A DNA stretch of 64,000 nucleotides, from the NCBI GenBank assembly GCA_963770525.1, contig CAVYPY010000003.1:445129-509128 (forward strand), read 5' to 3'. Numbering within the stretch: position 1 is the first letter of the stretch; every line of letters begins with the position of its first letter. A model generated the notes under the pieces. It saw only the letters and a list, made by a program, of their open reading frames with translations. It made no database searches and was not told the origin of the DNA. Source of the stretch: an uncultured Acidobacteriaceae bacterium. Its GTDB lineage: Bacteria > Acidobacteriota > Terriglobia > Terriglobales > Acidobacteriaceae. This document shows positions 13,313 to 45,322 of the stretch, one piece after another. A program made the translations under genes and the position numbers.

Positions 13313-14326
13313 TCATTTCGCCGCGGCCGGGCTCGCCGGACTCGGGCTCTCCGCCGGCGGCGCGATTCCCTGCTCCCGCAGGGCCCGGTCGATCATGATC
13401 CACAACTCGTGCTCGTCCAGCTGCCCCGCCCAGCGCTCCCCGTTCACGAAGAAGGTCGGCGTGGCGTTCACGCCCGCCCGGTCTCCCGCCTTCATTTCGG
13501 CGATGATCCCGTGGTCGTCCTGCTTCGCCACGCAGGCGTTCAGCTGCGTCCCGTCCAGATGTTCCCGCGTACCTTCCTGGCTGGCCAGCTTGTCCAGCAT
13601 GGCCGCTGATTTGGCCGTATCGTGAGACGGGCCGCTCACATCCTCGCCATGGGTGTGCAGATAATCGACGTAATTCCAGTAGGCCGTTTGGTTCTGGACT
13701 GCCAGGCAGTTCGCATCTACCGCCGCGTGCATCGCCCAGGGATGGATCTCGACCAGCGGGTAATCCAGATAGATGAAATTCACCAGGCCCTTGTAGTGTT
13801 CCAGCGTGTCGGGAAAGAACTCCGCGTTCATCCGCGCGCAGTAGGGGCACTCCAGGTCGTCGAAGTTGACGATCGTCACCTTCGCCTGCGAATTGCCGCG
13901 AACGGGCCGGCCCTCGGTCGGCAGCGTCGTCGCGGGATCCTTTCCCAGATCCCATCTGGACAGACGGGCCAGCGTGTTGCCGTCTTTCGAGAGCAGGAAG
14001 TTCACCGTCTGCGACCGGCTCGGCTCGCTGGGCAGTGAAAATGTCACCGGGATGGTGTCAAAGCCCACCAGGTCGCTCTTCTCACGCGCCCCGATGGTCA
14101 CCTGGTATTCCGGCGGCACGCTCAGCTCCGACCGGATCATGATTTCAATCTTCCGATTCAACGATGCAGGCGCCGGCAGAACTGGGGTATCCGTCTGCTG
14201 CGCGACGCACCCGGCTGCCAGAATCAAGGCGCCGCAAAAAAGCAAAAACCTGCTCAACAAGAAAAACCGCCTTCTCGGCTCAAAGCCAACATTACTGGGA
14301 TCACTTCCTTCATTATCGCAGTTCAC
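13313..14326 (-). CDS. DsbA-family thiol:disulfide oxidoreductase (lipoprotein)
   Basis: Lipobox LAAGC. Thioredoxin-fold CPYC motif (VNFDDLECPYCARM). Confidence 0.75.
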   Translation of the reverse strand: MNCDNEGSDPSNVGFEPRRRFFLLSRFLLFCGALILAAGCVAQQTDTPVLPAPASLNRKIEIMIRSELSVPPEYQVTIGAREKSDLVGFDTIPVTFSLPSEPSRSQTVNFLLSKDGNTLARLSRWDLGKDPATTLPTEGRPVRGNSQAKVTIVNFDDLECPYCARMNAEFFPDTLEHYKGLVNFIYLDYPLVEIHPWAMHAAVDANCLAVQNQTAYWNYVDYLHTHGEDVSGPSHDTAKSAAMLDKLASQEGTREHLDGTQLNACVAKQDDHGIIAEMKAGDRAGVNATPTFFVNGERWAGQLDEHELWIMIDRALREQGIAPPAESPSPASPAAAK

Positions 14327-14349
14327 CCGACGTCAGGCTTCCAAACCCG

Positions 14350-16839
14350 TCAAAACAGGCTGATCCGGTGAGTCAGATCGCCCACATTCGACATGCCGGC
14401 AAAATTGAAGGTCCAGAAATACTCGGTGTCGTCACGGATCGAGCCCAGCGAAAACCGGCGATACTGGAAATCGATACCGCAGCAATCCCAGTTGTACTGT
14501 ACCTGGGCCGCTCCAAATTGCAGCTGCTGGTGCACCAGATCGTACGTCGTATTCAGCCCCTCGCTCAGCCCCAGATGATTCGCTGCCCCGTGCGTCGCCA
14601 GCAGATGGATCTGGTTGTACTGAGTCGGCGCATTCGGCGATTGCGGCGGCGACTTGGCGGTGGTCAGCGGCGTGTATCCCAGGGGCACATTCATGTACGC
14701 ATCCCCAAACTGCAGCTTCCACAGGCCCGTCCGATATCCCGCAAACAGATTGCTCGAAGTGATCTTCCCTTCCTTCACGTCGTAGTCCAGATCCCACTCC
14801 CCATCCGTGGTCCCACTGGTCCGCAGCCGCAGCCGCGAAATCACCGGAGTGGTGTGCCGCGGCTCCGTCAGGAAGTCGATTCCTGTGAAATCGAGCGTTG
14901 TATCGAGCGGGTTCGGCGTACCCCGCGTGATCGCATGATCGAAATCCGGCTCGAAATAGTACTTCTGCGCGACCCGCCAGGTGAGCCAGTCCCTCGATCC
15001 CCCGCCGCACAGCACATCCGGGCCGAGCGCTTCGTCACCCTTGCACGGATGTGGAGGCAGATGCCGCAGAAACAGCCGTTGCGTCAATCCGTACTCCAGC
15101 TCGTTGGTGTTGCTCGCCACATCCGTCTGGTCGAATCGCAGAATCTGCCGGAAGTTATTGATCCCGGTGACGTACCGATAGGACACAGCCGGCTCAATCG
15201 TGTGGCGCACGTCACCGCCCAGCAGATGCACAAGCCATGGCGGAGAGAAATCTCGTTCCAGCGCTGGCGGCCGCAGCTCAAACCCCATCTCCACGTCGCT
15301 GCGCGCGACGTCTTCCGTGCGCACCGTCGGGATCTGCTCCAGATCCGCAGGATCCTGGCTCTTCCCATACCAGGTCTCGCGGAACGCCGCTTCCGGCCGA
15401 AAGGTCCAGCCATCGAAATGCAGCGGCAGAGAAGCGCGGGGGTAAAAGTCCACACGGGGCACCCCCGCCGTCGTCCGGAAACTCGGGTAGTCGTACCGGG
15501 ATATTGCACCCGCCGACCCGTCGAACCCCCACATGACACCCGACACGCTCTGCGGCCCACCCAGCCGCCGGTCCGCCGTGGCCACATCGACCTCCGGGAG
15601 ATGCAGGATTCGCACTTCGTCGCCCGTGATCGCCGCGCTCTGGAAATCCTGGTACCGATTCATGCGCAGGCTCTCCCACATGTCGTGGTTCTCGTGGGTC
15701 ACAAAGAGCTGCGATTTCACCTCGGAGTTGATCGCGATTGCGTAATCTTCCTCCCACACCAGCCGATAGATGTAGGAACTCAGATACTCCGCATCCACTA
15801 CCCCTGTCGTATGTGGCGTGAAATCGTAGCGGCCGTCGGCCGCGACATCCACCCCTCCCTGGTTCGCTCCGCGCTGTCCGTTTGGCAACAGAACGCCTTC
15901 ATCCAGGAGGCTGTGAAAGCGGACGTTCGCGAAATTCCGCTCCAGTCCCCGGTACCGGAACAACCCGTTGGGCGCGAATCCCCGGTTCGACCACCATTGC
16001 GACGCCACCATCAGGTCCGCGCTCCGCCCCAGCGTCAGGTAGACACCCTCCCCGATCATGAATCCCCTCGTCGTGTCATCTCCGAAATAGGGAATCAGAA
16101 TCCCCGACGACCGCTGCACATCCACTGCGTGCGTCATGTAGGGGAGGAAAAGCAATGGCAGGTGGAACCACTGAAACGTGGCGTTTTTTGCGCGTGCGAC
16201 GCCGTTGTCGAGCGCGATATTCCGCGACAGAATCCGCCAGTCCGGCTTCGGCAGCCGACACGAAGTCATCGTTCCGTGAATAACCCGATAGTGCCCCTTG
16301 CCCAGTTGCAAAACCTCGCGGCCGGTAAGGGCAAAGGGATTCGGCGCGGTAAACACCATCCGGCCGCGCGGCGTGCGCTCCACCCCCAGCGTGCCCACGA
16401 CATCAAAGAAGTCGCCCGTATCCTGCTGCACGTTGGTGGTTCCGTGGCTGGCTTCGAAATGCTCATCGTCCGGGCCGCCATCCACCATCAGGTGCCCCTG
16501 CGCCACCACTTCGCCGGTTGTGGCGTTGTAGGTCGCGTGGTCGGTGTGGATGATATAGAGCCGGTAATACAGGACCACATTGCCGTCCAGGGTATAAACG
16601 GTCCCGTTCTTCGTCTCTTCCCGCGTCTGCGTATCGGCAATGATTTTTACCGGTACCCCGGGGCTCGGTTGCGGCACAACATGCGCCTGTGGAATCGAGC
16701 TGTGCAGGCTGGGATCGTCAGGCAGGCTTGCTGCAGGACGACCTTGTGCGGGGGGAAGCTGCGTGGTTACCGCCTGCGCTCGGAGTCGCGGATGACACAG
16801 CAGATACAGCGTGATACACCAAAACAAGCGGGTTCTCAT
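14350..16839 (-). CDS. lptD: LPS-assembly outer-membrane protein LptD (OstA)
   Basis: About 830 aa. Signal peptide MRTRLFWCITLYLLCHPRLRAQ, OstA-like N-terminal domain and a large beta-barrel that ends with an aromatic residue (..HRISLF). Confidence 0.8.
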   Translation of the reverse strand: MRTRLFWCITLYLLCHPRLRAQAVTTQLPPAQGRPAASLPDDPSLHSSIPQAHVVPQPSPGVPVKIIADTQTREETKNGTVYTLDGNVVLYYRLYIIHTDHATYNATTGEVVAQGHLMVDGGPDDEHFEASHGTTNVQQDTGDFFDVVGTLGVERTPRGRMVFTAPNPFALTGREVLQLGKGHYRVIHGTMTSCRLPKPDWRILSRNIALDNGVARAKNATFQWFHLPLLFLPYMTHAVDVQRSSGILIPYFGDDTTRGFMIGEGVYLTLGRSADLMVASQWWSNRGFAPNGLFRYRGLERNFANVRFHSLLDEGVLLPNGQRGANQGGVDVAADGRYDFTPHTTGVVDAEYLSSYIYRLVWEEDYAIAINSEVKSQLFVTHENHDMWESLRMNRYQDFQSAAITGDEVRILHLPEVDVATADRRLGGPQSVSGVMWGFDGSAGAISRYDYPSFRTTAGVPRVDFYPRASLPLHFDGWTFRPEAAFRETWYGKSQDPADLEQIPTVRTEDVARSDVEMGFELRPPALERDFSPPWLVHLLGGDVRHTIEPAVSYRYVTGINNFRQILRFDQTDVASNTNELEYGLTQRLFLRHLPPHPCKGDEALGPDVLCGGGSRDWLTWRVAQKYYFEPDFDHAITRGTPNPLDTTLDFTGIDFLTEPRHTTPVISRLRLRTSGTTDGEWDLDYDVKEGKITSSNLFAGYRTGLWKLQFGDAYMNVPLGYTPLTTAKSPPQSPNAPTQYNQIHLLATHGAANHLGLSEGLNTTYDLVHQQLQFGAAQVQYNWDCCGIDFQYRRFSLGSIRDDTEYFWTFNFAGMSNVGDLTHRISLF

Positions 16840-37585: not shown

Positions 37586-39643
37586 ATGGGCAATTCCACC
37601 AGCGGCCCCACGCGCCGTACCTTCCTCCGCGGACTCACCGCCGCCGCCGCTGCCTCCACGGCACCCGCCTGGCTCGCCCGCACCGCCGCCGCCGCGCCCC
37701 TCACCAACACCCGCCCACAACCGGCCATCAAAGATCGAGCCCCGCTCACCTCCGGCGCCTTCTTCTTCCTGCCGCTCGGGTCCATCCGCCCCCGCGGCTG
37801 GCTCCTCGACCAGCTCCGCATCCAGGCCTCCGGCCTCTCCGGCCACCTCTACGAAATCTGGCCCGACGTCGGCCCCAACTCCGGCTGGCTCGGCGGCACC
37901 GGCGAAAGCTGGGAGCGCGGCCCCTACTACCTCGACGGTCTGCTGCCGCTCGCCTGGCTCGTCAACGATCCCCGCCTTCAGGCGCTCGCCCAGCGTTTCG
38001 TTGACTGGACCCTCGACCATCCCTGGCCCAGCGGCATGATCGGCCCCACGAAAAACAGCGACTGGTGGCCGCGCATCGTCATGCTCAAAGCCCTCACCCA
38101 ATACCAGGAGCTCACCGGCGACCCCCGCGTCCTTCCGCTCATGGACCGCTACTTCCGCTACCAGCTCGCCACGCTGCCCTCGCGACCGCTCCGCGACTGG
38201 GGCAAATTCCGCTGGCAGGACAACGTCCTCTCCGTCCTCTGGCTCTACAACCGCACCGGCTCGCCCTATCTCCTGGACCTCGCCCGCCTGCTCCATCAGC
38301 AGGGCTACGACTGGATCGCCGACGCCGAGCACTTCCAGTACACGCACGCCATGACCCAGGCCGAGCTGAAGCTCTCTTACGGACAGGGACTCGACGGCCT
38401 CGCCCTCGCCACCCACGGCGTCAACAACGGACAGGCCCTCAAGACCGGCGCCGTCTGGTCGCTCGTCTCCGGATCGCCGACCGATCGCGCCGCCTCCGCG
38501 CAGATGCTCGCCGACCTGACCCAATATCACGGCCTGCCCAACGGCATGTTCTCCTGCGACGAGCATCTCGCCGGACGCGATCCCTCGCACGGATCAGAAC
38601 TCTGCACCGTCGTCGAGAGCATGTTCTCGCTCGAACGCGCGCTCGCCATCACCGGCTCGGCCGCGCTCGGCGACCGGCTGGAGAAGCTGGCCTTCAACGC
38701 GCTGCCTGGCACGCTCACGGACGATATGTGGGCGCACCAATATAACCAGGAGCCCAATCAGATCGAGTGCAGCCTGCACCAGAAACCCTGGGTTTCCGAC
38801 GGCCCCGAGTCGAACCTCTTCGGCCTCGCGCCCAACTTCGGCTGCTGCACCGCGAACTTCCATCAGGGTTGGCCCAAGTTCGCCAACAGCCTCTGGATGC
38901 TCTCCGGCGCACCCGACCACGCCCGCGAAGACGGATTAGTCGCTGCCGCGTACGCGCCGTGCGAGGTCACAACGCTCGTCCGCGGAACCACCGTCACCGT
39001 GACTGAAGAAACCGGCTATCCGTTTCGCGGTGCCGTTTCATTGACGGTCAATCCGGAAAAGCCGCTGGCATTTCCGCTGCAGCTCCGTATTCCGGAGTGG
39101 GCCAGCGGAACCACGATTCGCATCAACGGCCAGAGCGTCGGCGAAATTCAGCCCGGCACTTTCCCCCGCGTCGAGCGGACGTGGAAACCTGGCGATCGCG
39201 TCGAGATCGACTTCCCGATGCACCTGCGCACTTCACGCTGGTTTAACCAGGCGGTCGCGGTCGAACGCGGGCCTCTGGTCTTCTCGCTCCAGGTTGGAGA
39301 AGACTGGGTCAAGCTGCAGCAGCACGGCGAGAAGTCCGCGGACTGGCAGGTTTTCCCGACCCACGAGTGGAATTACGCACTGGCCATCGATCCGGCACGT
39401 CCCGAAACGGATCTGGCGGTGACCGAAACCCCGATTGGCTCAGTTCCCTTTTCGGCAAAGGACACCGGAGTTCGCATCGCCGCCCGTGGACGCCAGGTCA
39501 CATCCTGGGTCGCCGACGATGGAGCAGCGAATCCGCTGCCGGAAAGCCCGGTTGCCAGCGAATCTCCGGAAGAGCGGCTGACGCTGTTGCCTTACGCGGC
39601 AGCAAAGCTGCGGATCACGGCGTTTCCGGTGCTCAAAAGCTAG
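37586..39643 (+). CDS. Glycoside hydrolase family 127 (DUF1680, beta-L-arabinofuranosidase-like) with a Tat signal
   Basis: Twin-arginine motif TRRTFLRGL. SELCTVVE and FGCCTANFHQGWPKF match the Cys/Zn site motifs of GH127. Confidence 0.8.
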   Translation: MGNSTSGPTRRTFLRGLTAAAAASTAPAWLARTAAAAPLTNTRPQPAIKDRAPLTSGAFFFLPLGSIRPRGWLLDQLRIQASGLSGHLYEIWPDVGPNSGWLGGTGESWERGPYYLDGLLPLAWLVNDPRLQALAQRFVDWTLDHPWPSGMIGPTKNSDWWPRIVMLKALTQYQELTGDPRVLPLMDRYFRYQLATLPSRPLRDWGKFRWQDNVLSVLWLYNRTGSPYLLDLARLLHQQGYDWIADAEHFQYTHAMTQAELKLSYGQGLDGLALATHGVNNGQALKTGAVWSLVSGSPTDRAASAQMLADLTQYHGLPNGMFSCDEHLAGRDPSHGSELCTVVESMFSLERALAITGSAALGDRLEKLAFNALPGTLTDDMWAHQYNQEPNQIECSLHQKPWVSDGPESNLFGLAPNFGCCTANFHQGWPKFANSLWMLSGAPDHAREDGLVAAAYAPCEVTTLVRGTTVTVTEETGYPFRGAVSLTVNPEKPLAFPLQLRIPEWASGTTIRINGQSVGEIQPGTFPRVERTWKPGDRVEIDFPMHLRTSRWFNQAVAVERGPLVFSLQVGEDWVKLQQHGEKSADWQVFPTHEWNYALAIDPARPETDLAVTETPIGSVPFSAKDTGVRIAARGRQVTSWVADDGAANPLPESPVASESPEERLTLLPYAAAKLRITAFPVLKS

Positions 39644-39664
39644 GTAGGGGTACCCCCTGGTAGT

Positions 39665-39733
39665 GCCAAATCACAAGTTGCTGATTTGGCAGCACATGGA
39701 AGGTAATACCCTGAGGGTATTACCTTCTTTTTC
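39665..39733 (+). terminator. Two tandem hairpins after GH127; the second is a rho-independent terminator
   Basis: First hairpin: GCCAAATCA-N8-TGATTTGGC (39665-39690). Second hairpin: AAGGTAATACCC-TGA-GGGTATTACCTT followed by CTTTTTCC (39700-39733). Confidence 0.75.
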
Positions 39734-39975
39734 CGGCTGGGCCTTGTTTCGGGCCGGAGCCGGTGAGCGAGAAAGCGAGCGGTCGTCTCAAAGAGCGCGG
39801 CGCTCCACCTGAGTGGAGCGGCAAAGGAAAAGCCCTGTTCGCGTTGCGGACAGGGCTTTCCCTGCTTCCAGTTTGGAATGCGGGGCGGTTGAGTGCAAGG
39901 GGAATCGCGCGGTGAGAGGGTACGAAGGTACCGCGGGGAGTGAGTCCGCTGCGCTCGTCCCGAGCTGCGCGGACG

Positions 39976-40044
39976 GCCTGCGGCAGCAAGGAAGCGCGCT
40001 GCGCGCGGTCTTTTCGGCACGACTGAAGTCATGCCCTGATACAA
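39976..40044. repeat. Left arm of a long inverted repeat flanking the tandem array (includes a REP-like hairpin)
   Basis: 39976-39994 (GCCTGCGGCAGCAAGGAAG) is the perfect reverse complement of 40421-40439. 40013-40044 matches the reverse complement of 40370-40401 at 31/32 positions. Confidence 0.85.
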
Positions 40045-40070
40045 AACCTCAGGGGCTGAAGCCAGGGACC

Positions 40071-40370
40071 TGTATCAGGGCATGGGTCTTGTATCAGGTC
40101 ATGGGTCTTGTATCAGGGCATGGGACTTGTATCAGGTCATGGGTCCTGTATCAGGGCATGGGTCTTGTATCAGGCATGGGTCCTGTATCAGGGCATGGGA
40201 CTTGTATCAGGTCATGGGTCCTGTATCAGGTCATGGGTCTTGTATCAGGCATGGGTCCTGTATCAGGGCATGGGTCCTGTATCAGGGCATGGGACTTGTA
40301 TCAGGGCATGGGACTTGTATCAGGTCATGGGTCTTGTATCAGGCATGGGTCTTGTATCAGGCATGGCTCT
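40071..40370. repeat. Tandem array of 16 units of 18-19 bp, TGTATCAGG(G/T/-)CATGG(G/C)(T/A)C(T/C)
   Basis: Units counted by hand start at 40071, 40090, 40109, 40128, 40147, 40166, 40184, 40203, 40222, 40241, 40259, 40278, 40297, 40316, 40335 and 40353. Twelve are 19 bp and four are 18 bp. Confidence 0.95.
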
Positions 40371-40439
40371 TGTATCAGGGCACGACTTCAGTCGTGCCGA
40401 ATAAGTGCGCCGACAGGTACCTTCCTTGCTGCCGCAGGC
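40370..40439. repeat. Right arm of the inverted repeat (REP-like hairpin GGCACGAC-TTCA-GTCGTGCC plus the outer 19-mer)
   Basis: See the left arm. The spacer segments between the inner and outer blocks (18 and 19 nt) are unrelated. Confidence 0.85.
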
Positions 40440-40517
40440 TCTCGGCGCAGGTGCGCAGCACCGCAGCCGAGTCGTTGAATCGGCCGATTGCCTCAAAGCA
40501 GGCCTGATCCGCTGTCG

Positions 40518-41060
40518 CTAGCGGCTGTTTTCCCCGTGCCAGTCGATGTGGACGCCGCGGGCGGAGATGGTGATGGAGGGCGGGCGCTGGCGGGTGAGGA
40601 GATGGATGGTCTGGAATCCGCCGGTGAGGGCGAGGAGGGCTCCGCTGCCGACGAGGAGGCCGAGTTTGGAGGTGGGGTCGGGGTCGAGGACGGCGGCGAT
40701 GATGAGGCCGGCGCCGAAAACCGTCATCCCCGCCGAAACGGAGACGGCGGTCCACTCGCGGCGGGAGAGGCGGCCGGAGAGGCCCATCTGCAGGAGCGAG
40801 TGGCGGGCGGGGTCGATGCCAGCGCCAGCGTCGTCGATGAGGTCGACCTGGGCGTGGTGGCGGTAGGCCTCGGTGAGGCGGGCGAGCCAGTCTTTTTCGG
40901 AGGTTCGGATGGTTAGGGGCGGGGCCGGGCTGGATTGCAAGTCGGGCTTCGACTCGTGGCGGGGGGGCAGGACGATCTCGGTTGGCCCGGTGGAGCGATA
41001 GGCCTTCATCGCATTCAGGCCGGCCTGAAAGGCCTGGCGGATCCTAGCCATGTGAAACAC
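40518..41060 (-). CDS. Hypothetical membrane protein (soluble N-terminal half, two C-terminal TM helices)
   Basis: 180-aa ORF. Either the GTG at 41060 or the ATG at 41051 could be the start. It overlaps the XRE gene's stop by 17 or 8 nt. TM segments: VSAGMTVFGAGLIIAAVL and LGLLVGSGALLALTGGF. Confidence 0.55.
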   Translation of the reverse strand: MFHMARIRQAFQAGLNAMKAYRSTGPTEIVLPPRHESKPDLQSSPAPPLTIRTSEKDWLARLTEAYRHHAQVDLIDDAGAGIDPARHSLLQMGLSGRLSRREWTAVSVSAGMTVFGAGLIIAAVLDPDPTSKLGLLVGSGALLALTGGFQTIHLLTRQRPPSITISARGVHIDWHGENSR

Positions 41061-41367
41061 GCTCCAGCCGCTGCAGGGTATCAGGGTAATGACGCACCAG
41101 CAGGATCAGCGCTGCGGCCTGGGGATTGGGTTTGGAACGGCCCTGTTCCCATTTTTCGAGTGTGCGCTCGTTAATGCGCAGGCGGCGAGCAAAGACGGCA
41201 CGGGAGCAGCGCAGCCTGGCACGCGTGTCGCGAATGAAGGCCGAATCCAGTTCGGGGAGCGGCGCGGGATCGAAGCGATACGAGCGCAGCGTGATTTTCC
41301 CCTCGCGATGTGCCTTCATCGCCTCGACGCCTTCCATGAGTTCGTTGAAGAGACTGCGCTTCGCCAT
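41044..41367 (-). CDS. XRE-family HTH protein, antitoxin-like (COG2944/HigA2-like architecture)
   Basis: 107 aa. C-terminal HTH reads SRAVFARRLRINERTLEKWEQGRSKPNPQAAALI. GGAGG lies upstream of the ATG. Confidence 0.75.
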   Translation of the reverse strand: MAKRSLFNELMEGVEAMKAHREGKITLRSYRFDPAPLPELDSAFIRDTRARLRCSRAVFARRLRINERTLEKWEQGRSKPNPQAAALILLVRHYPDTLQRLERVSHG

Positions 41368-41520
41368 AACTACCTCCTCGGCGGACGTCGTGCGACCCGC
41401 ATTGCTGTCTCCATGTCGACCGCTGCTTTCAGTGCGCTTTTTTGTGCAGGGCTCAGATCGTCCATTTCGCTCTTCCCTTACAGCGTCATCAGCCAGATTT
41501 GCCGATTCAGGAGGATTGCT

Positions 41521-42300
41521 TCATTCGCTGCTTATCACAACACGTTCCTTCCGCGACCATTCCTTATAGGTGCTATTGCAGTAAGGATGAGTAAGCACCG
41601 CGTTGTCCTCCGAGCCAAGGCCTCCATGCCTTTTGTCAACGACATGGTCCAGGTTCATGGAATTCTTGTGTAGGCGTGCTCTACATATTCCGCACCGCAT
41701 CGCCGTCTTTAGAGCTTGAGTCAAAAACACTGCCGACTTTCTCTCGGTAGTAAAGTCCGGATTCGTCCCCTTGTCGAAGTCGATGATCGGCTTTAGAAAT
41801 CCCATTGTCTCTTCTTCGACCAGTTTCGGGATGATTTCTTCCTCGTTCTTGCCTTGCCGGATTCCATCAAAAACGTGCCTGAAGAGACGGGAGACGCCAG
41901 TCAGGCTCCTTTGCCCCGCACCGAGTTTCCTGACAATTTGATTGATGAGGTACTTATGCCTGACAAGCAGTTCCTCAAAATCGTGCCGAAACTGCGTAAA
42001 AACGTTTAGTTCGTCAGACCTCTCAAGGTCCAAGGCGAGGCGAACGGCAGCTAGAAATGCGGTTGGTTGATAGTTACCTGTTGCGCTGTAGAAGTAGACC
42101 GCAGGATGCAGCCCCAGAGACTGCGGCTTTATTCCCGCGATTCTGGAGGACGCGTTGCGGACGTTTTCGAGAAACTGAATTGTCTTTGACCCATCGGTGT
42201 CCTCTTGCATTGTGGGCGCAAGAATGTCAGTCTTTCCCCTGCGCCTTTTCACAGCTGGGCCTGCCGTGGGAATGGGATTCACAAATTCGACAAAATCTAG
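41521..42300 (-). pseudogene. C-terminal fragment (HNH nuclease part) of an IS-disrupted ParB/DGQHR-fold + HNH gene
   Basis: HNH motif CGICRARLHKNSMNLDHVVDKRHGGLGSEDNAVLTHPYCN. Its frame continues in phase with the N-terminal fragment once the IS and one CTAG copy are removed. Confidence 0.8.
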
Positions 42301-43200
42301 AGGCTGTTATTAAGTTTGAGTAAGCATTTTGAAGAGGGTGGCGAGCATGAGGCAGGCGCAGGCGAGAAAGTGGAAGGCACCGAGAGTGGTAGCCAGGCGT
42401 TCGTAATCGCGGGCCAGGCGGCGGAAGCGGGCAGCCCAGGCAAAGCTTCTCTCCACCACCCAGCGGCGCGGCAGCAGAACAAAGCCTCGTTTGGCCTGAG
42501 TATGTTTCACCACTTCCAGGGCGATTCCGTGCTGTTCGGCGGCCTCGGCCGCAGCTTCGCCGGTATAGCCCTGATCCACGTAGGCGAGTTCGACGTGCTC
42601 ACCGGTGATCTGCTGCACCTGCCGGGACAGCTCGCCGACCTGGGCGCGATCCTGTTCGTTGGCCGGAGTCACATGCAGGGCCAGCAGATGCCCCAGCGTA
42701 TCCACAGCGGCGTGTACTTTGGAGCCTTTGCGCCGTTTGGCTCCGTCATAGCCGGCTCGCGCACCCGATTCCGGTGTCGACTGCAGCGTGCGGCTGTCGA
42801 GAATCATCGCTGTGGGCTGCGCTTTGCGCCCGGCAAACTCGCGCAGCAGCATGCGCAGGTCTTCCACCATCGTCTCGAAGCAACGGGCGCGGATCCAGCG
42901 CTGCACCTGCTGATACACGACCTCCCACGGCGGCAGATCGTTGGGCAGATAACGCCACTGGCAGCCGGTCCGCACCACATAGCGCAATCCGTTGAAGACG
43001 TCGCGGAGCGGGTACTCGCGCTGCTCGGCGTCCTCCCGGCAGAGGGCCAGGTAGGGCGCCACCATCGCCCACTCCTCATCCGTCACATCGCTCGGATACC
43101 CCTGTCGCTCACGCCGTCCCACAACCCCAGGATGCACGACAGAAAGCCAAATCGCTCATCTGTTTCAAAACACAGGAACAAACTTAATAACAGCCTCTAG
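42297..43200 (-). mobile_element. IS5-family insertion sequence (904 bp including both CTAG ends)
   Basis: Perfect 22-bp terminal inverted repeats: CTAGAGGCTGTTATTAAGTTTG (42297-42318) and CAAACTTAATAACAGCCTCTAG (43179-43200). CTAG at both ends can be read as a 4-bp target duplication. There is a single transposase ORF inside. Confidence 0.9.
42310..43137 (-). CDS. IS5-family DDE transposase
   Basis: 275 aa. The stretch [16 protein letters not shown]...[31 protein letters not shown] (DUF4096-type N-terminus) is followed by a DDE_Tnp_1-like region ([10 protein letters not shown]...YVDQGYTG...[10 protein letters not shown]). Confidence 0.9.
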
Positions 43201-44049
43201 AATGAGTTTCATCGTCTCTGCCGAATAGCCGCGGCCAGCTACGGGCAAATCGAGCGTCTTTATCGGGGTTTCTAACGGAGGCACAAAGAGGTCTGCGTAG
43301 ACATCCTTCGCCAACAACTTGATTTGACCGTTCGTTAGATCGGAGAAAGATGGCGGGGAGTATCGTCCGGTTCCAGCCCCAACGAGTGCGCGTGTCGCTA
43401 TTGCATTGGCACTCTTCCGGTCTCTAATTAAGCGCACTTCCAAGTCGCCAATCGGGGTTTGCTCAGTATTGATCGTGTGGAATGATCTCTCCGCGCGTGA
43501 CGCATCGCCGCGAACCCACTGCAACGTGATTCCGCCAGCCGCCAGATTGCTCGCGAATCGAGCACGTTCCGGGGTCAAATTGGCACCATGCTTGATGTCG
43601 TTATATGACCCGATTTTCGTTGCGACTAGCTTTCGCGCCTCAAGCGCGGCGGCTTTCTGTTCCGGGGGTATCGAACCTTCAAAAAATCCCAGCGAAATTC
43701 CGCCGTCTCCATAGTCATCGTGCACCCACGCAACCAGCGCACTGAGGCGATGTGCTCCATCAATTACGAATATTCCGCTTGCATCGGATTGCCAAAGAAT
43801 CAGGGCGGGGATGAGGTCGCCAGATACGAAACTCTCGATGAAGCCTGCTACCTTCGTCGGGGACCAATGCGCCGTCGTCCTCTGAAAATCAGGCTTTCTG
43901 AGCCACCTGAACATGAGACTCGTAGGCTCAATCTCTATGATTTTCATTCGATCCGCTTCATCCAGTGGATGTGACTTCTGCGGGTCAATGTTTACGGTGA
44001 AATCCTCTCTGCGGATCAGCGCGTCGAGGTTGACCATGTGCGTGGGCAC
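43197..44049 (-). pseudogene. N-terminal fragment (ParB/sulfiredoxin-fold, DGQHR-type domain) of the IS-disrupted nuclease gene
   Basis: Sequence: LRKPDFQRTTAHWSPTKVAGFIESFVSGDLIPALILWQSDASGIFVIDGAHRLSAL. The track ORF extends to 43165, but its last 10 residues (EAVIKFVPVF) are encoded by the IS end. Confidence 0.8.
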
Positions 44050-44143
44050 GGATCGAATTCCTCCTAGTGGGAAGCTTTAATCATAGCCCCCCGAATCCCT
44101 CGAATCTCTTGCCCTTGTCGCGGACCCTTATTCCTTCGCTACC

Positions 44144-45302
<1,159 letters not shown>

Positions 45303-45322
45303 TCTTAAAGTCTAGCTAAAAA

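What the first reader, a model, noticed from the sequence alone, without database searches (positions are those of the whole stretch)
39976..40439. Sixteen 18-19-bp tandem repeats enclosed by a roughly 70-bp inverted repeat at the edge of the low-GC island
Positions 40071-40370 hold 16 head-to-tail units of TGTATCAGG(G/T/-)CATGG(G/C)(T/A)C(T/C). I listed the unit starts in the feature entry. Twelve units are 19 bp and four are 18 bp.

The 17th unit start runs directly into a REP-like hairpin, GGCACGAC-TTCA-GTCGTGCC. The unit therefore looks like an amplified 5' portion of that element.

The whole array is bracketed by an inverted repeat.
- The outer 19-mer at 39976-39994 is perfectly complementary to 40421-40439.
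- The inner 32-mer at 40013-40044 is complementary to 40370-40401 at 31/32 positions.

The period is not a multiple of three and unit lengths are mixed, so I do not think it is coding. All three forward frames are nevertheless open, which produces three overlapping artefactual ORFs in the track.

Possible roles:
- an iteron-like protein-binding array, with the adjacent XRE protein as an obvious candidate binder;
- a MITE-like non-autonomous element with an expanded internal satellite;
- a long stem-enclosed structured RNA;
- a contingency (copy-number-variable) locus.
Basis: seen in the sequence. Interest (0 to 1): 0.65.

Follow-up and report, generated by a model that had tools for sequence, protein, structure and literature searches.

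The report
Inverted REP pair enclosing amplified REP-edge satellite
Two inverted copies of a hairpin-rich repeat element common in soil Acidobacteria (a REP element, linked elsewhere to its own transposase-like gene) enclose a 16-unit stutter of the element's own edge; it is most likely a by-product of how such elements are cut, copied or replicated, not an origin, an operator array or an RNA gene.

Summary
There are 16 head-to-tail units of 18-19 bp at 40071-40370. They are bracketed by an inverted repeat whose arms are in fact about 103 nt long (39942-40044 and 40371-40473).

Each arm is one copy of a composite multi-hairpin REP-type element that is widespread in Terriglobales (Acidobacteriota). 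Its core hairpin, GGCACGAC-TTCA-GTCGTGCC, was found in more than 120 genome stretches. In five loci a REP-associated tyrosine transposase (RAYT) gene lies directly beside it, and in three of them inverted copies bracket the gene. The stems covary. Copies are about 90% intergenic, and their orientation follows the replication strand (p = 6e-7).

The array is a lineage-specific amplification of the element's head plus half-stem, lying in the linker of a head-to-head REP pair. Orthologous loci in relatives have the inverted repeat without the array, a single arm, or nothing. Similar head-adjacent arrays recur in other genomes (25 bp x 12.8, 30 bp x 3.5, 12 bp x 8.6 and others).

The most likely mechanism is RAYT nick-and-strand-transfer or hairpin-promoted replication slippage. 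The iteron, XRE-operator, structured-RNA-gene and contingency-locus readings are not supported.

The locus coincides with a clade-conserved GC-skew switch, which remains unexplained. Verdict: a new variant of a known kind, of moderate interest.

The parts
39942..40044 (-). Left arm: one full copy of the composite REP-type element, read on the minus strand. In window coordinates it comprises a distal hairpin (39942-39975), the conserved 19-mer (39976-39994), a small GC hairpin (39994-40006), the core hairpin hp1 GGCACGAC-TGAA-GTCATGCC (40016-40035) and the head CTGATACAA (40036-40044).
   Evidence: Inverted-repeat pairs I1 and I2. The family profile hits 40006-40046 on the minus strand at E = 5e-11. 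It aligns over its full length with 37 dispersed copies. Orthologous single copies exist in L013 and L121.
40045..40070 (-). Ancestral linker between the two heads. It contains a remnant resembling the family's second hairpin (GGCTTCAGCCCCTGAGG on the minus strand, 40047-40063).
   Evidence: Read directly from the sequence. The family profile matches model positions 45-73 at 40046-40074 on the minus strand, E = 0.03.
40071..40370 (+). Tandem array of 16 units (12 x 19 bp, 4 x 18 bp; 8 variants). Each unit is the REP head TGTATCAG plus the first stem bases GGCATG plus GGTCT.
   Evidence: The array is absent from the orthologous loci L123/L124, L121, L013 and L125. The unit occurs in none of 245 related loci and in no viral or metagenome contig.
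40371..40473 (+). Right arm: a second full copy of the composite element on the plus strand. It comprises the head TGTATCAG (40371-40378), hp1 GGCACGAC-TTCA-GTCGTGCC (40379-40398), a spacer, the 19-mer (40421-40439) and a distal hairpin CTCGGCGCAGGTGCGCAGCACCGCAGCCGAG (40440-40473).
   Evidence: The family profile hits 40370-40406 at E = 8e-11. Positions 40420-40474 are 98% identical to an arm in L123. Alignment A2.

Best explanation
The feature is a head-to-head pair of REP-type elements, organised like an E. coli BIME or a REPIN. The elements belong to a composite multi-hairpin repeat family that is dispersed through Terriglobales genomes and is serviced in trans by a REP-associated tyrosine transposase (RAYT, an HUH/Y1 enzyme acting on single-stranded DNA).

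The 16 x 19-bp array fills the linker between the two heads. It is a lineage-specific tandem amplification of the element's own edge: the head plus the first six stem bases of the right-hand copy.

Shown:
- the family membership of both arms;
- the RAYT linkage of the family;
- selection on the hairpins;
- the replication-strand bias of the family;
- the absence of the array from orthologous loci;
- the recurrence of head-adjacent arrays in other genomes.

Inferred: how the units were added. I favour RAYT bound to the intact hairpin on lagging-strand-template ssDNA, cutting at the stem-foot junction (GCC|CTGATACA on the minus strand). A 3'-OH is then extended or rejoined one unit out of register. 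Each new unit re-creates the junction, so the process can repeat. Plain replication slippage at a hairpin-stalled fork is the close alternative.

The array itself probably has no dedicated cellular function.
For: Family and RAYT link:
- hp1 occurs in more than 120 genome stretches, all Acidobacteriota, where I estimate about 2 hits by chance. It has a conserved head, spacer and second hairpin.
- A RAYT gene lies directly beside hp1 in L066, L117, L069, L050 and L051. In L066, L069 and L117 inverted hp1 copies about 541 bp apart bracket the gene. The L066 protein matches NCBIfam REP_Tyr_transpos at 118 bits (cutoff 80) and Pfam Y1_Tnp at 4.8e-15.

Selected hairpins:
- hp2 shows 32 double-sided changes against 5.9 in shuffles, with 0 of 500 shuffles reaching that.
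- 9 of 14 two-mismatch hp1 variants are exact compensatory pairs.
- 7 of 8 stem pairs of hairpin A covary across 39 composite copies that include both window arms.

Distribution:
- 114 of 126 copies are intergenic.
- Orientation tracks local GC skew (Fisher p = 5.8e-7; Mann-Whitney p = 1.3e-9), and does so in all four gene arrangements. This is as expected for ssDNA elements acting at the lagging-strand template (PMC3333891).
- The outer 19-mer and distal hairpin are also part of dispersed copies.

Lineage specificity:
- L123/L124 have the same outer arms but no array.
- L121 and L013 have a single arm.
- L125 has none.

Recurrence of head-adjacent arrays:
- L089 25 bp x 12.8; L068 30 bp x 3.5; L041 16 bp x 2; L076 51 bp x 2.3; L026 21 bp x 2; L144.
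- L111 has a head-to-head pair with a 12 bp x 8.6 array between the heads.

Mechanistic precedent:
- E. coli TnpA-REP binds a complete REP on ssDNA. It cuts at CT sites in the inverted REP and in the linker, and its strand transfer can assemble tandem copies. The published amplification model uses a head-to-head BIME.
- The unit's hypervariable position (G, T or gap) sits exactly on the stem-foot junction.
Against: - No RAYT gene and no further family copy lie in the 64-kb window. The source genome could not be retrieved, so I cannot show that a cognate RAYT exists in this organism or how many copies it has.
- The family lacks the GTAG tetranucleotide of classical REPs.
- Head-to-head pairs are the rare arrangement in this family, 2 of 44 neighbouring pairs.
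- The array has 8 unit variants, with variable positions also away from the junction. It is therefore not young, and ordinary slippage followed by mutation explains it equally well.
- The resemblance of the junction to the E. coli cleavage site is a resemblance, not a test.
- The exact-match scans bias the sampled copies towards conserved ones.
- The coincidence with a conserved GC-skew switch is not explained by this model.
Confidence: 0.72

Rival explanations
1. The identity is the same (an inverted REP pair), but the array arose purely by replication slippage or unequal exchange. The hairpin-forming REP stalls the fork and short homologies misalign. No RAYT catalysis is involved.
For: - The left arm's CATGCCCTGATACAA can pair with any of the units, giving at least 12 alternative registers.
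- TRF finds higher-order periods of 75 and 94 bp, suggesting multi-unit duplications.
- The 8 unit variants and mixed 18/19-bp lengths are typical of minisatellite dynamics.
- There is no RAYT in the window.
Against: - Slippage alone does not predict that arrays in many genomes should sit specifically at the head or foot of hp1 and include its first stem bases.
- It also does not predict that the most variable unit position should be the stem-foot junction.
Confidence: 0.3
2. The array is an iteron-like or origin-associated protein-binding array. It sits at the cumulative GC-skew minimum and acts in replication initiation or control.
For: - Sixteen direct 18-19-bp repeats are iteron-sized.
- The replication-type skew switch (negative to positive, independent of gene strand) lies at about 39.3-39.9 kb, next to the array. 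It is conserved at the same gap in L121 and L123.
Against: - The window has no initiator or rep gene, no dnaA, no DnaA-box cluster, no AT-rich unwinding element and no parS.
- Relatives keep the skew switch but lack the array.
- The unit is derived from a dispersed REP.
- There are no plasmid or phage matches.
Confidence: 0.05
3. The array is an operator array for the neighbouring XRE-family regulator (41044-41367).
For: An HTH_31/HTH_3 protein is encoded about 0.7 kb away, and direct repeats could bind a multimeric regulator.
Against: - The array lies downstream of the convergent 3' ends, not at the XRE promoter.
- No unit-like sequence occurs upstream of the XRE gene or anywhere else in the window.
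- L121 has the XRE and 173-aa gene pair without the array or the inverted repeat. L123 has the inverted repeat but only a 34-aa ORF where the XRE gene would be.
Confidence: 0.03
4. The region is a long stem-enclosed structured RNA gene or a cis-regulatory RNA.
For: - The predicted fold is strong (z = -10.7).
- The family hairpins covary, which is equally compatible with RNA.
- REPs in other bacteria act in mRNA 3' ends (established knowledge, summarised in PMC3333891).
Against: - There is no Rfam match in the window or in 16 family loci.
- No promoter-like site was found.
- Element orientation follows replication strand in every gene arrangement and is only weakly tied to gene direction.
- RAYT linkage points to a DNA-level element.
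- The array is absent in orthologues.
Confidence: 0.06
5. The array is a contingency (phase-variable) locus whose copy number switches expression of a neighbouring gene, or it is an assembly artefact.
For: Short tandem repeats are intrinsically length-unstable. No independent assembly of this genome was found for checking.
Against: - The tract lies between two convergent stop codons (39643 and 40518), not in a promoter or an ORF.
- The aperiodic order of 8 unit variants (CBADCEADBEFAABGH) is not what collapsed or expanded repeat mis-assembly produces.
Confidence: 0.05

Closest known systems
E. coli BIMEs (REP + inverted REP with linker; BIME-2 and atypical BIME tandem arrays) and their RAYT, TnpA-REP (Ton-Hoang et al. 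2012, PMC3333891)
   Same: - Two inverted hairpin repeats are separated by a linker.
- The family is linked to a RAYT gene flanked by the repeats (a REPtron).
- Amplification is local and tandem.
- The published model has the enzyme bind the full REP, cut at CT sites in the inverted REP and in the linker, and add units by strand transfer, illustrated with a head-to-head BIME.
- Copy number at a locus varies between strains.
   Different: - Here the amplified unit is only 18-19 bp, a sub-REP fragment of head plus half-stem, not a whole REP-iREP unit.
- The element is a roughly 100-nt composite of three or four hairpins.
- The head is T(G/T)T(G/A)N(C/A)AG, not GTAG.
- The host is Acidobacteriota.
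REPINs (REP doublets forming hairpins) of Pseudomonas (Bertels and Rainey 2011, PMC3116915)
   Same: - It is an inverted doublet of REPs able to fold into one long hairpin in ssDNA.
- It is non-autonomous, and a RAYT is present elsewhere in the family.
   Different: - The two arms are distinct family members, only 77% complementary in their outer halves.
- The head-to-head doublet is rare in this family (2 of 44 pairs).
- There is no evidence that the doublet replicates as a unit.
- The spacer is expanded to 326 nt by the satellite.
Acidobacterial 'TIRYT' and class 3 Y1-transposase systems (Di Nocera et al. 2013, PMC3733652; Quentin et al. 2018, PMC6006769)
   Same: These are RAYT-like Y1/HUH genes in Acidobacteria flanked by inverted hairpin-containing repeats that can be multi-copy in the genome.
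   Different: - Those papers do not give this hairpin sequence, and no searchable paper contains it.
- I did not test which published class the L066-type RAYT belongs to.
- No sub-REP satellites are described there.
Plasmid and secondary-chromosome iterons
   Same: These are direct repeats of 17-22 bp in multiple head-to-tail copies in a non-coding region. The window's array additionally sits at a skew switch.
   Different: - There is no adjacent initiator gene, DnaA box or AT-rich region.
- The units derive from a dispersed REP.
- The array is absent in relatives that keep the skew switch.

Membership tests
REP elements of a REP-RAYT system | Short GC-rich imperfect palindrome (20-40 nt) whose pairing is maintained | tested here: met
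   hp1 has an 8-bp stem and a 4-nt loop. Compensatory variants are seen, and hp2 covaries.
REP elements of a REP-RAYT system | Many dispersed, mostly extragenic copies | tested here: met
   Met at family level: more than 120 genome stretches and 114 of 126 copies intergenic. For the source genome itself this is not testable; only 2 copies lie in the 64 kb.
REP elements of a REP-RAYT system | A RAYT gene flanked by the same repeats (REPtron) in genomes carrying the family | tested here: met
   Met in L066, L117, L069, L050 and L051. NCBIfam REP_Tyr_transpos scores 118 bits against a cutoff of 80. It is not present in the window.
REP elements of a REP-RAYT system | Conserved GTAG (or CGTC) tetranucleotide at the foot of the palindrome | tested here: not met
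   The head consensus is T(G/T)T(G/A)N(C/A)AG, and only AG is nearly invariant. The family therefore lies outside the classical GTAG superfamily of PMC3733652.
REP elements of a REP-RAYT system | Strand asymmetry consistent with ssDNA or lagging-strand-template biology | tested here: met
   Orientation against local GC skew gives Fisher p = 5.8e-7, and the bias holds in all gene arrangements.
REPIN | Two REPs in inverted orientation separated by a short spacer | tested here: met
   The arms are 39942-40044 and 40371-40473. The spacer without the array is 26 nt.
REPIN | The doublet, not the single REP, is the replicating unit and occurs as many near-identical copies | tested here: inconclusive
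   Head-to-head doublets are only 2 of 44 neighbouring pairs in the sampled loci, and the two arms are different family variants. The source genome was not available for counting doublets.
BIME-type tandem amplification | Tandem repetition of whole REP-iREP units at one locus | tested here: not met
   In the window only an 18-19-bp sub-REP fragment is repeated. Whole-element tandems with periods of 90-98 bp do occur elsewhere in the family (L035, L037, L038, L042, L065).
Iteron-type replication origin | Adjacent initiator (rep or dnaA) gene, DnaA boxes and an AT-rich unwinding element | tested here: not met
   Searches found none of these in the window.
Iteron-type replication origin | Array conserved among relatives that share the replicon | tested here: not met
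   L121, L123/L124 and L125 share synteny and the skew switch but lack the array.
Curated RNA family (Rfam 15) | Match to a covariance model | tested here: not met
   No hits were found in the window at the gathering threshold, only chance-level hits at E up to 10, and none in 16 family loci.
Contingency locus | Repeat tract inside an ORF or a promoter, so that length changes switch expression | tested here: not met
   The tract lies between convergent stop codons at 39643 and 40518. No promoter-like site was found.

The most novel reading that the evidence does not exclude
Sub-REP 'head stutter' satellites may be natural footprints of RAYT nick-and-strand-transfer activity. This covers the window's 19-bp array and its counterparts in L089, L068, L041, L076, L026, L144 and L111. 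On this reading, each unit boundary marks the in vivo cleavage junction at the foot of the hairpin. The process would be favoured where ssDNA is abundant, and in this clade the doublet sits at a conserved replication-type GC-skew switch that lacks any canonical oriC signature. If so, these arrays would give the first sequence-level read-out of RAYT cleavage and amplification outside enterobacteria. They would also flag an unconventional origin-proximal, or polarity-switch, hot spot in Acidobacteriaceae.
Probability: 0.3. Interest if true: 0.6.

Novelty: new variant of a known kind. Interest (0 to 1): 0.42.

Why it matters
REP elements and their domesticated transposases are well studied in only a few Proteobacteria, and how REPs amplify locally is known only from in vitro work with the E. 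coli enzyme.

This locus and its relatives define an apparently undescribed REP-RAYT family that spans an order of abundant soil bacteria. The family has composite elements of three or four hairpins, lacks the classical GTAG tag, and shows a strong replication-strand bias. It repeatedly spawns short satellites from the exact edge of the hairpin. If those satellites are enzyme footprints, they give testable predictions for the cleavage site and amplification mechanism of a non-enterobacterial RAYT.

Practically, the result warns annotators on three points:
- the three long ORFs across the array are artefacts;
- a 19-bp direct-repeat array at a skew minimum need not be an iteron origin;
- the region is a rearrangement and island-insertion hot spot.

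Tried and rejected
- Plasmid and phage blastn of 39900-40500: no match.
- Exact-protein look-ups of both flanking genes: not on record, so the source genome could not be retrieved.
- Two-unit array pattern in viral and metagenome collections: 0 hits. Copy-number variation and an assembly artefact therefore could not be tested.
- Rfam, at the gathering threshold and permissively, on the window and 16 loci: nothing credible.
- DnaA boxes (up to 2 mismatches), AT-rich 40-mers, parS and Pfam annotation of 20 flanking genes: no origin signature.
- Coding hypothesis for the three overlapping ORFs: no family match, and the period is not a multiple of three.
- tRNA or tmRNA attachment site for the island: none in the window.
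- Outer 19-mer as locus-specific sequence: rejected. It is part of dispersed composite copies. It also occurs in an unrelated lipobox-coding class and in a G-rich class of unknown nature.
- RAYT genes in the relatives' orthologous gap as the cognate enzyme: rejected. They form a different clade (26-30% identity) with a different flanking repeat, and the window retains no trace of either.
- Literature search for the hairpin sequence and for origin mapping in Acidobacteria: nothing found.
- I planned a covariance model but did not build one. Profile-HMM, regex and alignment analyses answered the same questions.
Full report
**1. Observation**

The sequence is as described.
- Tandem Repeats Finder reports 40071-40382 with period 19, 16.6 copies and 90% matches.
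- Parsing the TGTATCAGG starts gives 16 units: twelve of 19 bp and four of 18 bp, in eight variants ordered CBADCEADBEFAABGH. A 17th start continues into GGCACGAC-TTCA-GTCGTGCC.
- The core 15-mer occurs 14 times with up to 2 mismatches, against 0.08 expected, and only at this locus.
- The inner arms (40013-40044 and 40370-40401) are complementary at 31/32 positions. The outer 19-mers are perfectly complementary, and this outer repeat extends to 53 nt at 77% (39942-39994 and 40421-40473). Each arm is therefore about 103 nt.
- As ssDNA the region folds with the arms paired and the array largely unpaired in the centroid structure (dG -136 kcal/mol, z = -10.7).
- All three forward frames are open, but the ORFs have no credible family match.

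**2. Setting**

The window is chromosomal DNA of about 62% G+C.
- The array lies in an 874-bp gap between convergent genes: a GH127 beta-L-arabinofuranosidase (37586-39643, +) and a 180-aa hydrophobic protein (40518-41060, -).
- Further right come an XRE regulator, an HNH nuclease, an IS5-type transposase, a GmrSD-like nuclease, RF-2 and Lnt.
- The window has no tRNA, no Rfam family, and no plasmid or phage similarity.

**3. What the arms are**

All hits were Acidobacteriota: Terracidiphilus, Acidobacteriaceae, Sulfotelmatobacter, Korobacteraceae and other Terriglobales.
- The flanks show a composite element. It has a head (TTTGTATCAG, TTTGTGTCAG, TTTGTAACAG, TTTTGAAAG or GGGAAG, with AG nearly invariant), then hp1, an A-rich spacer, a second hairpin GGGGC-TTTA-GCCCC and CTGAGG.
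- The second hairpin shows compensatory changes at every stem pair: 32 double-sided changes against 5.9 in shuffles, with 0 of 500 shuffles reaching that.
- Divergent hp1 copies carry exact compensatory pairs, in 9 of 14 two-mismatch variants.
- In L066 two inverted copies bracket a 175-aa ORF with HUH (NHIHIL) and YIENNP motifs. It matches the NCBIfam equivalog 'REP-associated tyrosine transposase' (118 bits, cutoff 80) and Pfam Y1_Tnp.
- Homologous genes lie directly beside hp1 in L117, L069, L050 and L051. In L117 and L069 the gene is bracketed by inverted hp1 copies about 541 bp apart, as in L066.
- A metagenome scan with the outer 19-mer returned more than 120 stretches. About 65 copies have the same module order as the window's arms: head, an 8-bp hairpin with a TTCA-type loop, a small GC hairpin, the 19-mer and a distal hairpin.
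- In an alignment of 39 such copies, including both window arms, 7 of 8 pairs of the main stem show double-sided compensatory changes.

Both arms, inner and outer parts together, are therefore complete members of a dispersed, RAYT-linked REP-type family. No searchable paper contains the hairpin sequence. RAYT-like genes with flanking repeats have been noted in Acidobacteria (PMC3733652, PMC6006769).

**4. Family behaviour**

- 114 of 126 copies are intergenic.
- Orientation follows local GC skew: the strand carrying head-hp1(TTCA)-hp2 is the C-rich one (Fisher p = 5.8e-7; Mann-Whitney p = 1.3e-9). This holds in all four gene arrangements. The bias is therefore with replication, not transcription, as described for single-strand HUH transposition (PMC3333891).
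- Neighbouring copies are mostly tandem (30) or tail-to-tail (12, three of them around RAYT genes). Head-to-head pairs like the window's are rare (2).

**5. What the array is**

- On the plus strand each unit is the head TGTATCAG, then GGCATG (the first six stem bases, in the variant carried by the left arm), then GGTCT.
- On the minus strand each unit is CTGATACAAGACCC + ATGCC: the 3' flank of the hairpin plus its last five stem bases.
- The unit is found nowhere else: not in the window, not in 245 related loci totalling 1.59 Mb, and not in viral or metagenome collections.

Orthologous loci were recovered through GH127 homologues of 88-89% identity and through the hairpin scan (L013). They show a graded series:

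| Locus | State of the orthologous region |
|---|---|
| L123/L124 | Same outer arms (34 nt, 94% complementary). Inside them is a different inverted hairpin pair (CCCCGGCC-TGAA-GGCCGGGG) around 194 nt of unique sequence that retains CCCTGATACAAAAC. No array. |
| L121 | One arm only, with hp1 split by a 44-nt insertion. |
| L013 | One intact arm. |
| L125 | Nothing. |

The array is thus a lineage-specific expansion inside an older and labile REP structure.

**6. Recurrence**

Short-period arrays abut the hp1 head in other genomes, and several include the first stem bases.

| Locus | Array |
|---|---|
| L089 | 25 bp x 12.8 |
| L068 | 30 bp x 3.5 |
| L041 | 16 bp x 2 |
| L076 | 51 bp x 2.3 |
| L026 | 21 bp x 2 |
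| L144 | head duplicated (GTATCAGGGCAC twice) |

L111 reproduces the whole architecture: two complete elements head-to-head, with a 12 bp x 8.6 array between the heads. Whole-element tandems with periods of 90-98 bp or 198 bp also occur.

**7. Mechanism**

Shown so far are the identity of the arms, the RAYT linkage, the strand bias, the lineage specificity and the recurrence. The step that adds units is inferred.

Ton-Hoang et al. showed that E. coli TnpA-REP:
- binds a complete REP on ssDNA;
- cuts at low-specificity CT sites at the inverted REP (type I site TGCC|TGAT) and in the linker;
- catalyses strand transfer that can assemble tandem copies. Their amplification model uses a head-to-head BIME.

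The window's array occupies exactly that linker. Every unit re-creates the junction ATGCC|(C/A/-)TGATAC, and the unit's most variable position (G, T or gap on the plus strand) is that junction.

I therefore favour RAYT nick-and-rejoin stuttering. Hairpin-promoted replication slippage is a close alternative. The left arm can pair with at least 12 units in alternative registers, and TRF sees higher-order periods of 75 and 94 bp. The two cannot be separated in silico.

**8. Rivals**

- **Iteron or origin.** The replication-type GC-skew switch (negative to positive, regardless of gene strand) lies at about 39.3-39.9 kb and is conserved at the same GH127|prfB gap in L121 and L123. But the window has no dnaA, rep gene, DnaA-box cluster, AT-rich element or parS, and relatives keep the switch without the array.
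- **XRE operator.** No unit lies near the XRE promoter, and the XRE gene and the array or inverted repeat do not co-occur.
- **RNA gene.** There is no Rfam hit and no promoter, and orientation is tied to replication.
- **Contingency locus.** The tract lies between convergent 3' ends.
- **Assembly artefact.** This is untestable here, but the aperiodic variant order argues against it.

**9. Comparison and verdict**

Functionally and structurally this is a BIME- or REPIN-like head-to-head REP pair from a RAYT-linked family. It fails the GTAG criterion of classical REPs and the 'doublet as replicating unit' criterion of REPINs. What is repeated is a sub-REP fragment, not a whole BIME.

I rate it a new variant of a known kind. 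The REP family appears undescribed, and the head-stutter satellites are a new wrinkle with mechanistic promise, but nothing suggests a new kind of system.

Limits:
- the source genome was not retrievable;
- the scans were exact-match and capped;
- the cognate RAYT in this organism is unseen.

Noticed in passing
window about 39300-39900; L121 about 14000-16000; L123 about 15000: A replication-type GC-skew switch (negative to positive, cumulative minimum, same sign for genes on either strand) lies beside the REP pair. It is conserved at the same GH127|prfB gap in two relatives. No dnaA, DnaA-box cluster, AT-rich element or parS lies nearby. It could be an unconventional origin region or an old rearrangement breakpoint.
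   Followed up: partly
window 39644-44143; L121 12059-19314; L123 12056-15306; L125 5343-6978: The gap between GH127 and prfB/lnt is a hot spot for variable cargo. The window has XRE, HNH, IS5 transposase and GmrSD. L121 has two Y1 transposases, DnaJ and HTH genes. L123/L124 have an N6/N4 methyltransferase. L125 has a Y1 transposase.
   Followed up: partly
L123 14177-15252 compared with window 39674-40910: The segment comprising the terminator-containing intergenic region, the inverted repeat and the 180-aa gene is inverted in L123/L124 relative to the window, L121 and L125. In each genome the 180-aa gene's skew matches the side of the switch on which it lies.
   Followed up: partly
L121 12139-12609 and 18756-19229; L125 6448-6918: A second RAYT-like Y1 clade (156-157 aa, 26-30% identical to the hp1-linked RAYT) sits in the orthologous gap. 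It is flanked by a different inverted repeat, GGGTGCCCCATCCTTGTC. The window retains no trace of either.
   Followed up: partly
L131, L134, L145, L155, L161, L180, L228 and about 10 more metagenome loci: A conserved G-rich sequence of about 65 nt (GGCGTGGGGGGAACCCGCCCGCCCCGGCTTTCCCCCGGAGGGGGAAACGGGAAAGGGGGAGATCAAA) immediately precedes the same 19-mer CTTCCTTGCTGCCGCAGGC in many soil contigs. It has no Rfam match and its nature is unknown.
   Followed up: partly
L121 17015-17070; L123 14909-14938: The core hairpin looks like an insertion or replacement target. It is split by a 44-nt insertion in L121, and in L123 a different 8-bp hairpin with a TGAA loop takes its place.
   Followed up: no
window 40518-41367: An overlapping gene pair, an XRE-family HTH protein (107 aa) and a 180-aa hydrophobic protein with no family match, is conserved at about 86% nucleotide identity in L121. 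The 180-aa gene alone is also conserved in L123 and L125. Its function is unknown.
   Followed up: no
window 39700-39726: A perfect 13-bp palindrome (AAGGTAATACCCT-G-AGGGTATTACCTT) followed by a T-run lies downstream of GH127 and is probably a bidirectional terminator. In L123 the same hairpin lies downstream of prfB because of the inversion.
   Followed up: no
window 44144-45304; L121 19315-20473; L123 15307-16302: The RF-2 (prfB) gene calls differ in length (331 aa against 379-385 aa). That is what the well-known programmed +1 frameshift of prfB would produce. I did not check this.
   Followed up: no
window 39813-40478, 40082-40507, 40108-40404 (+): Three overlapping ORFs of 98-221 aa run through the array in all three forward frames. 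They are artefacts of a stop-free repeat and should not be annotated as genes.
   Followed up: yes
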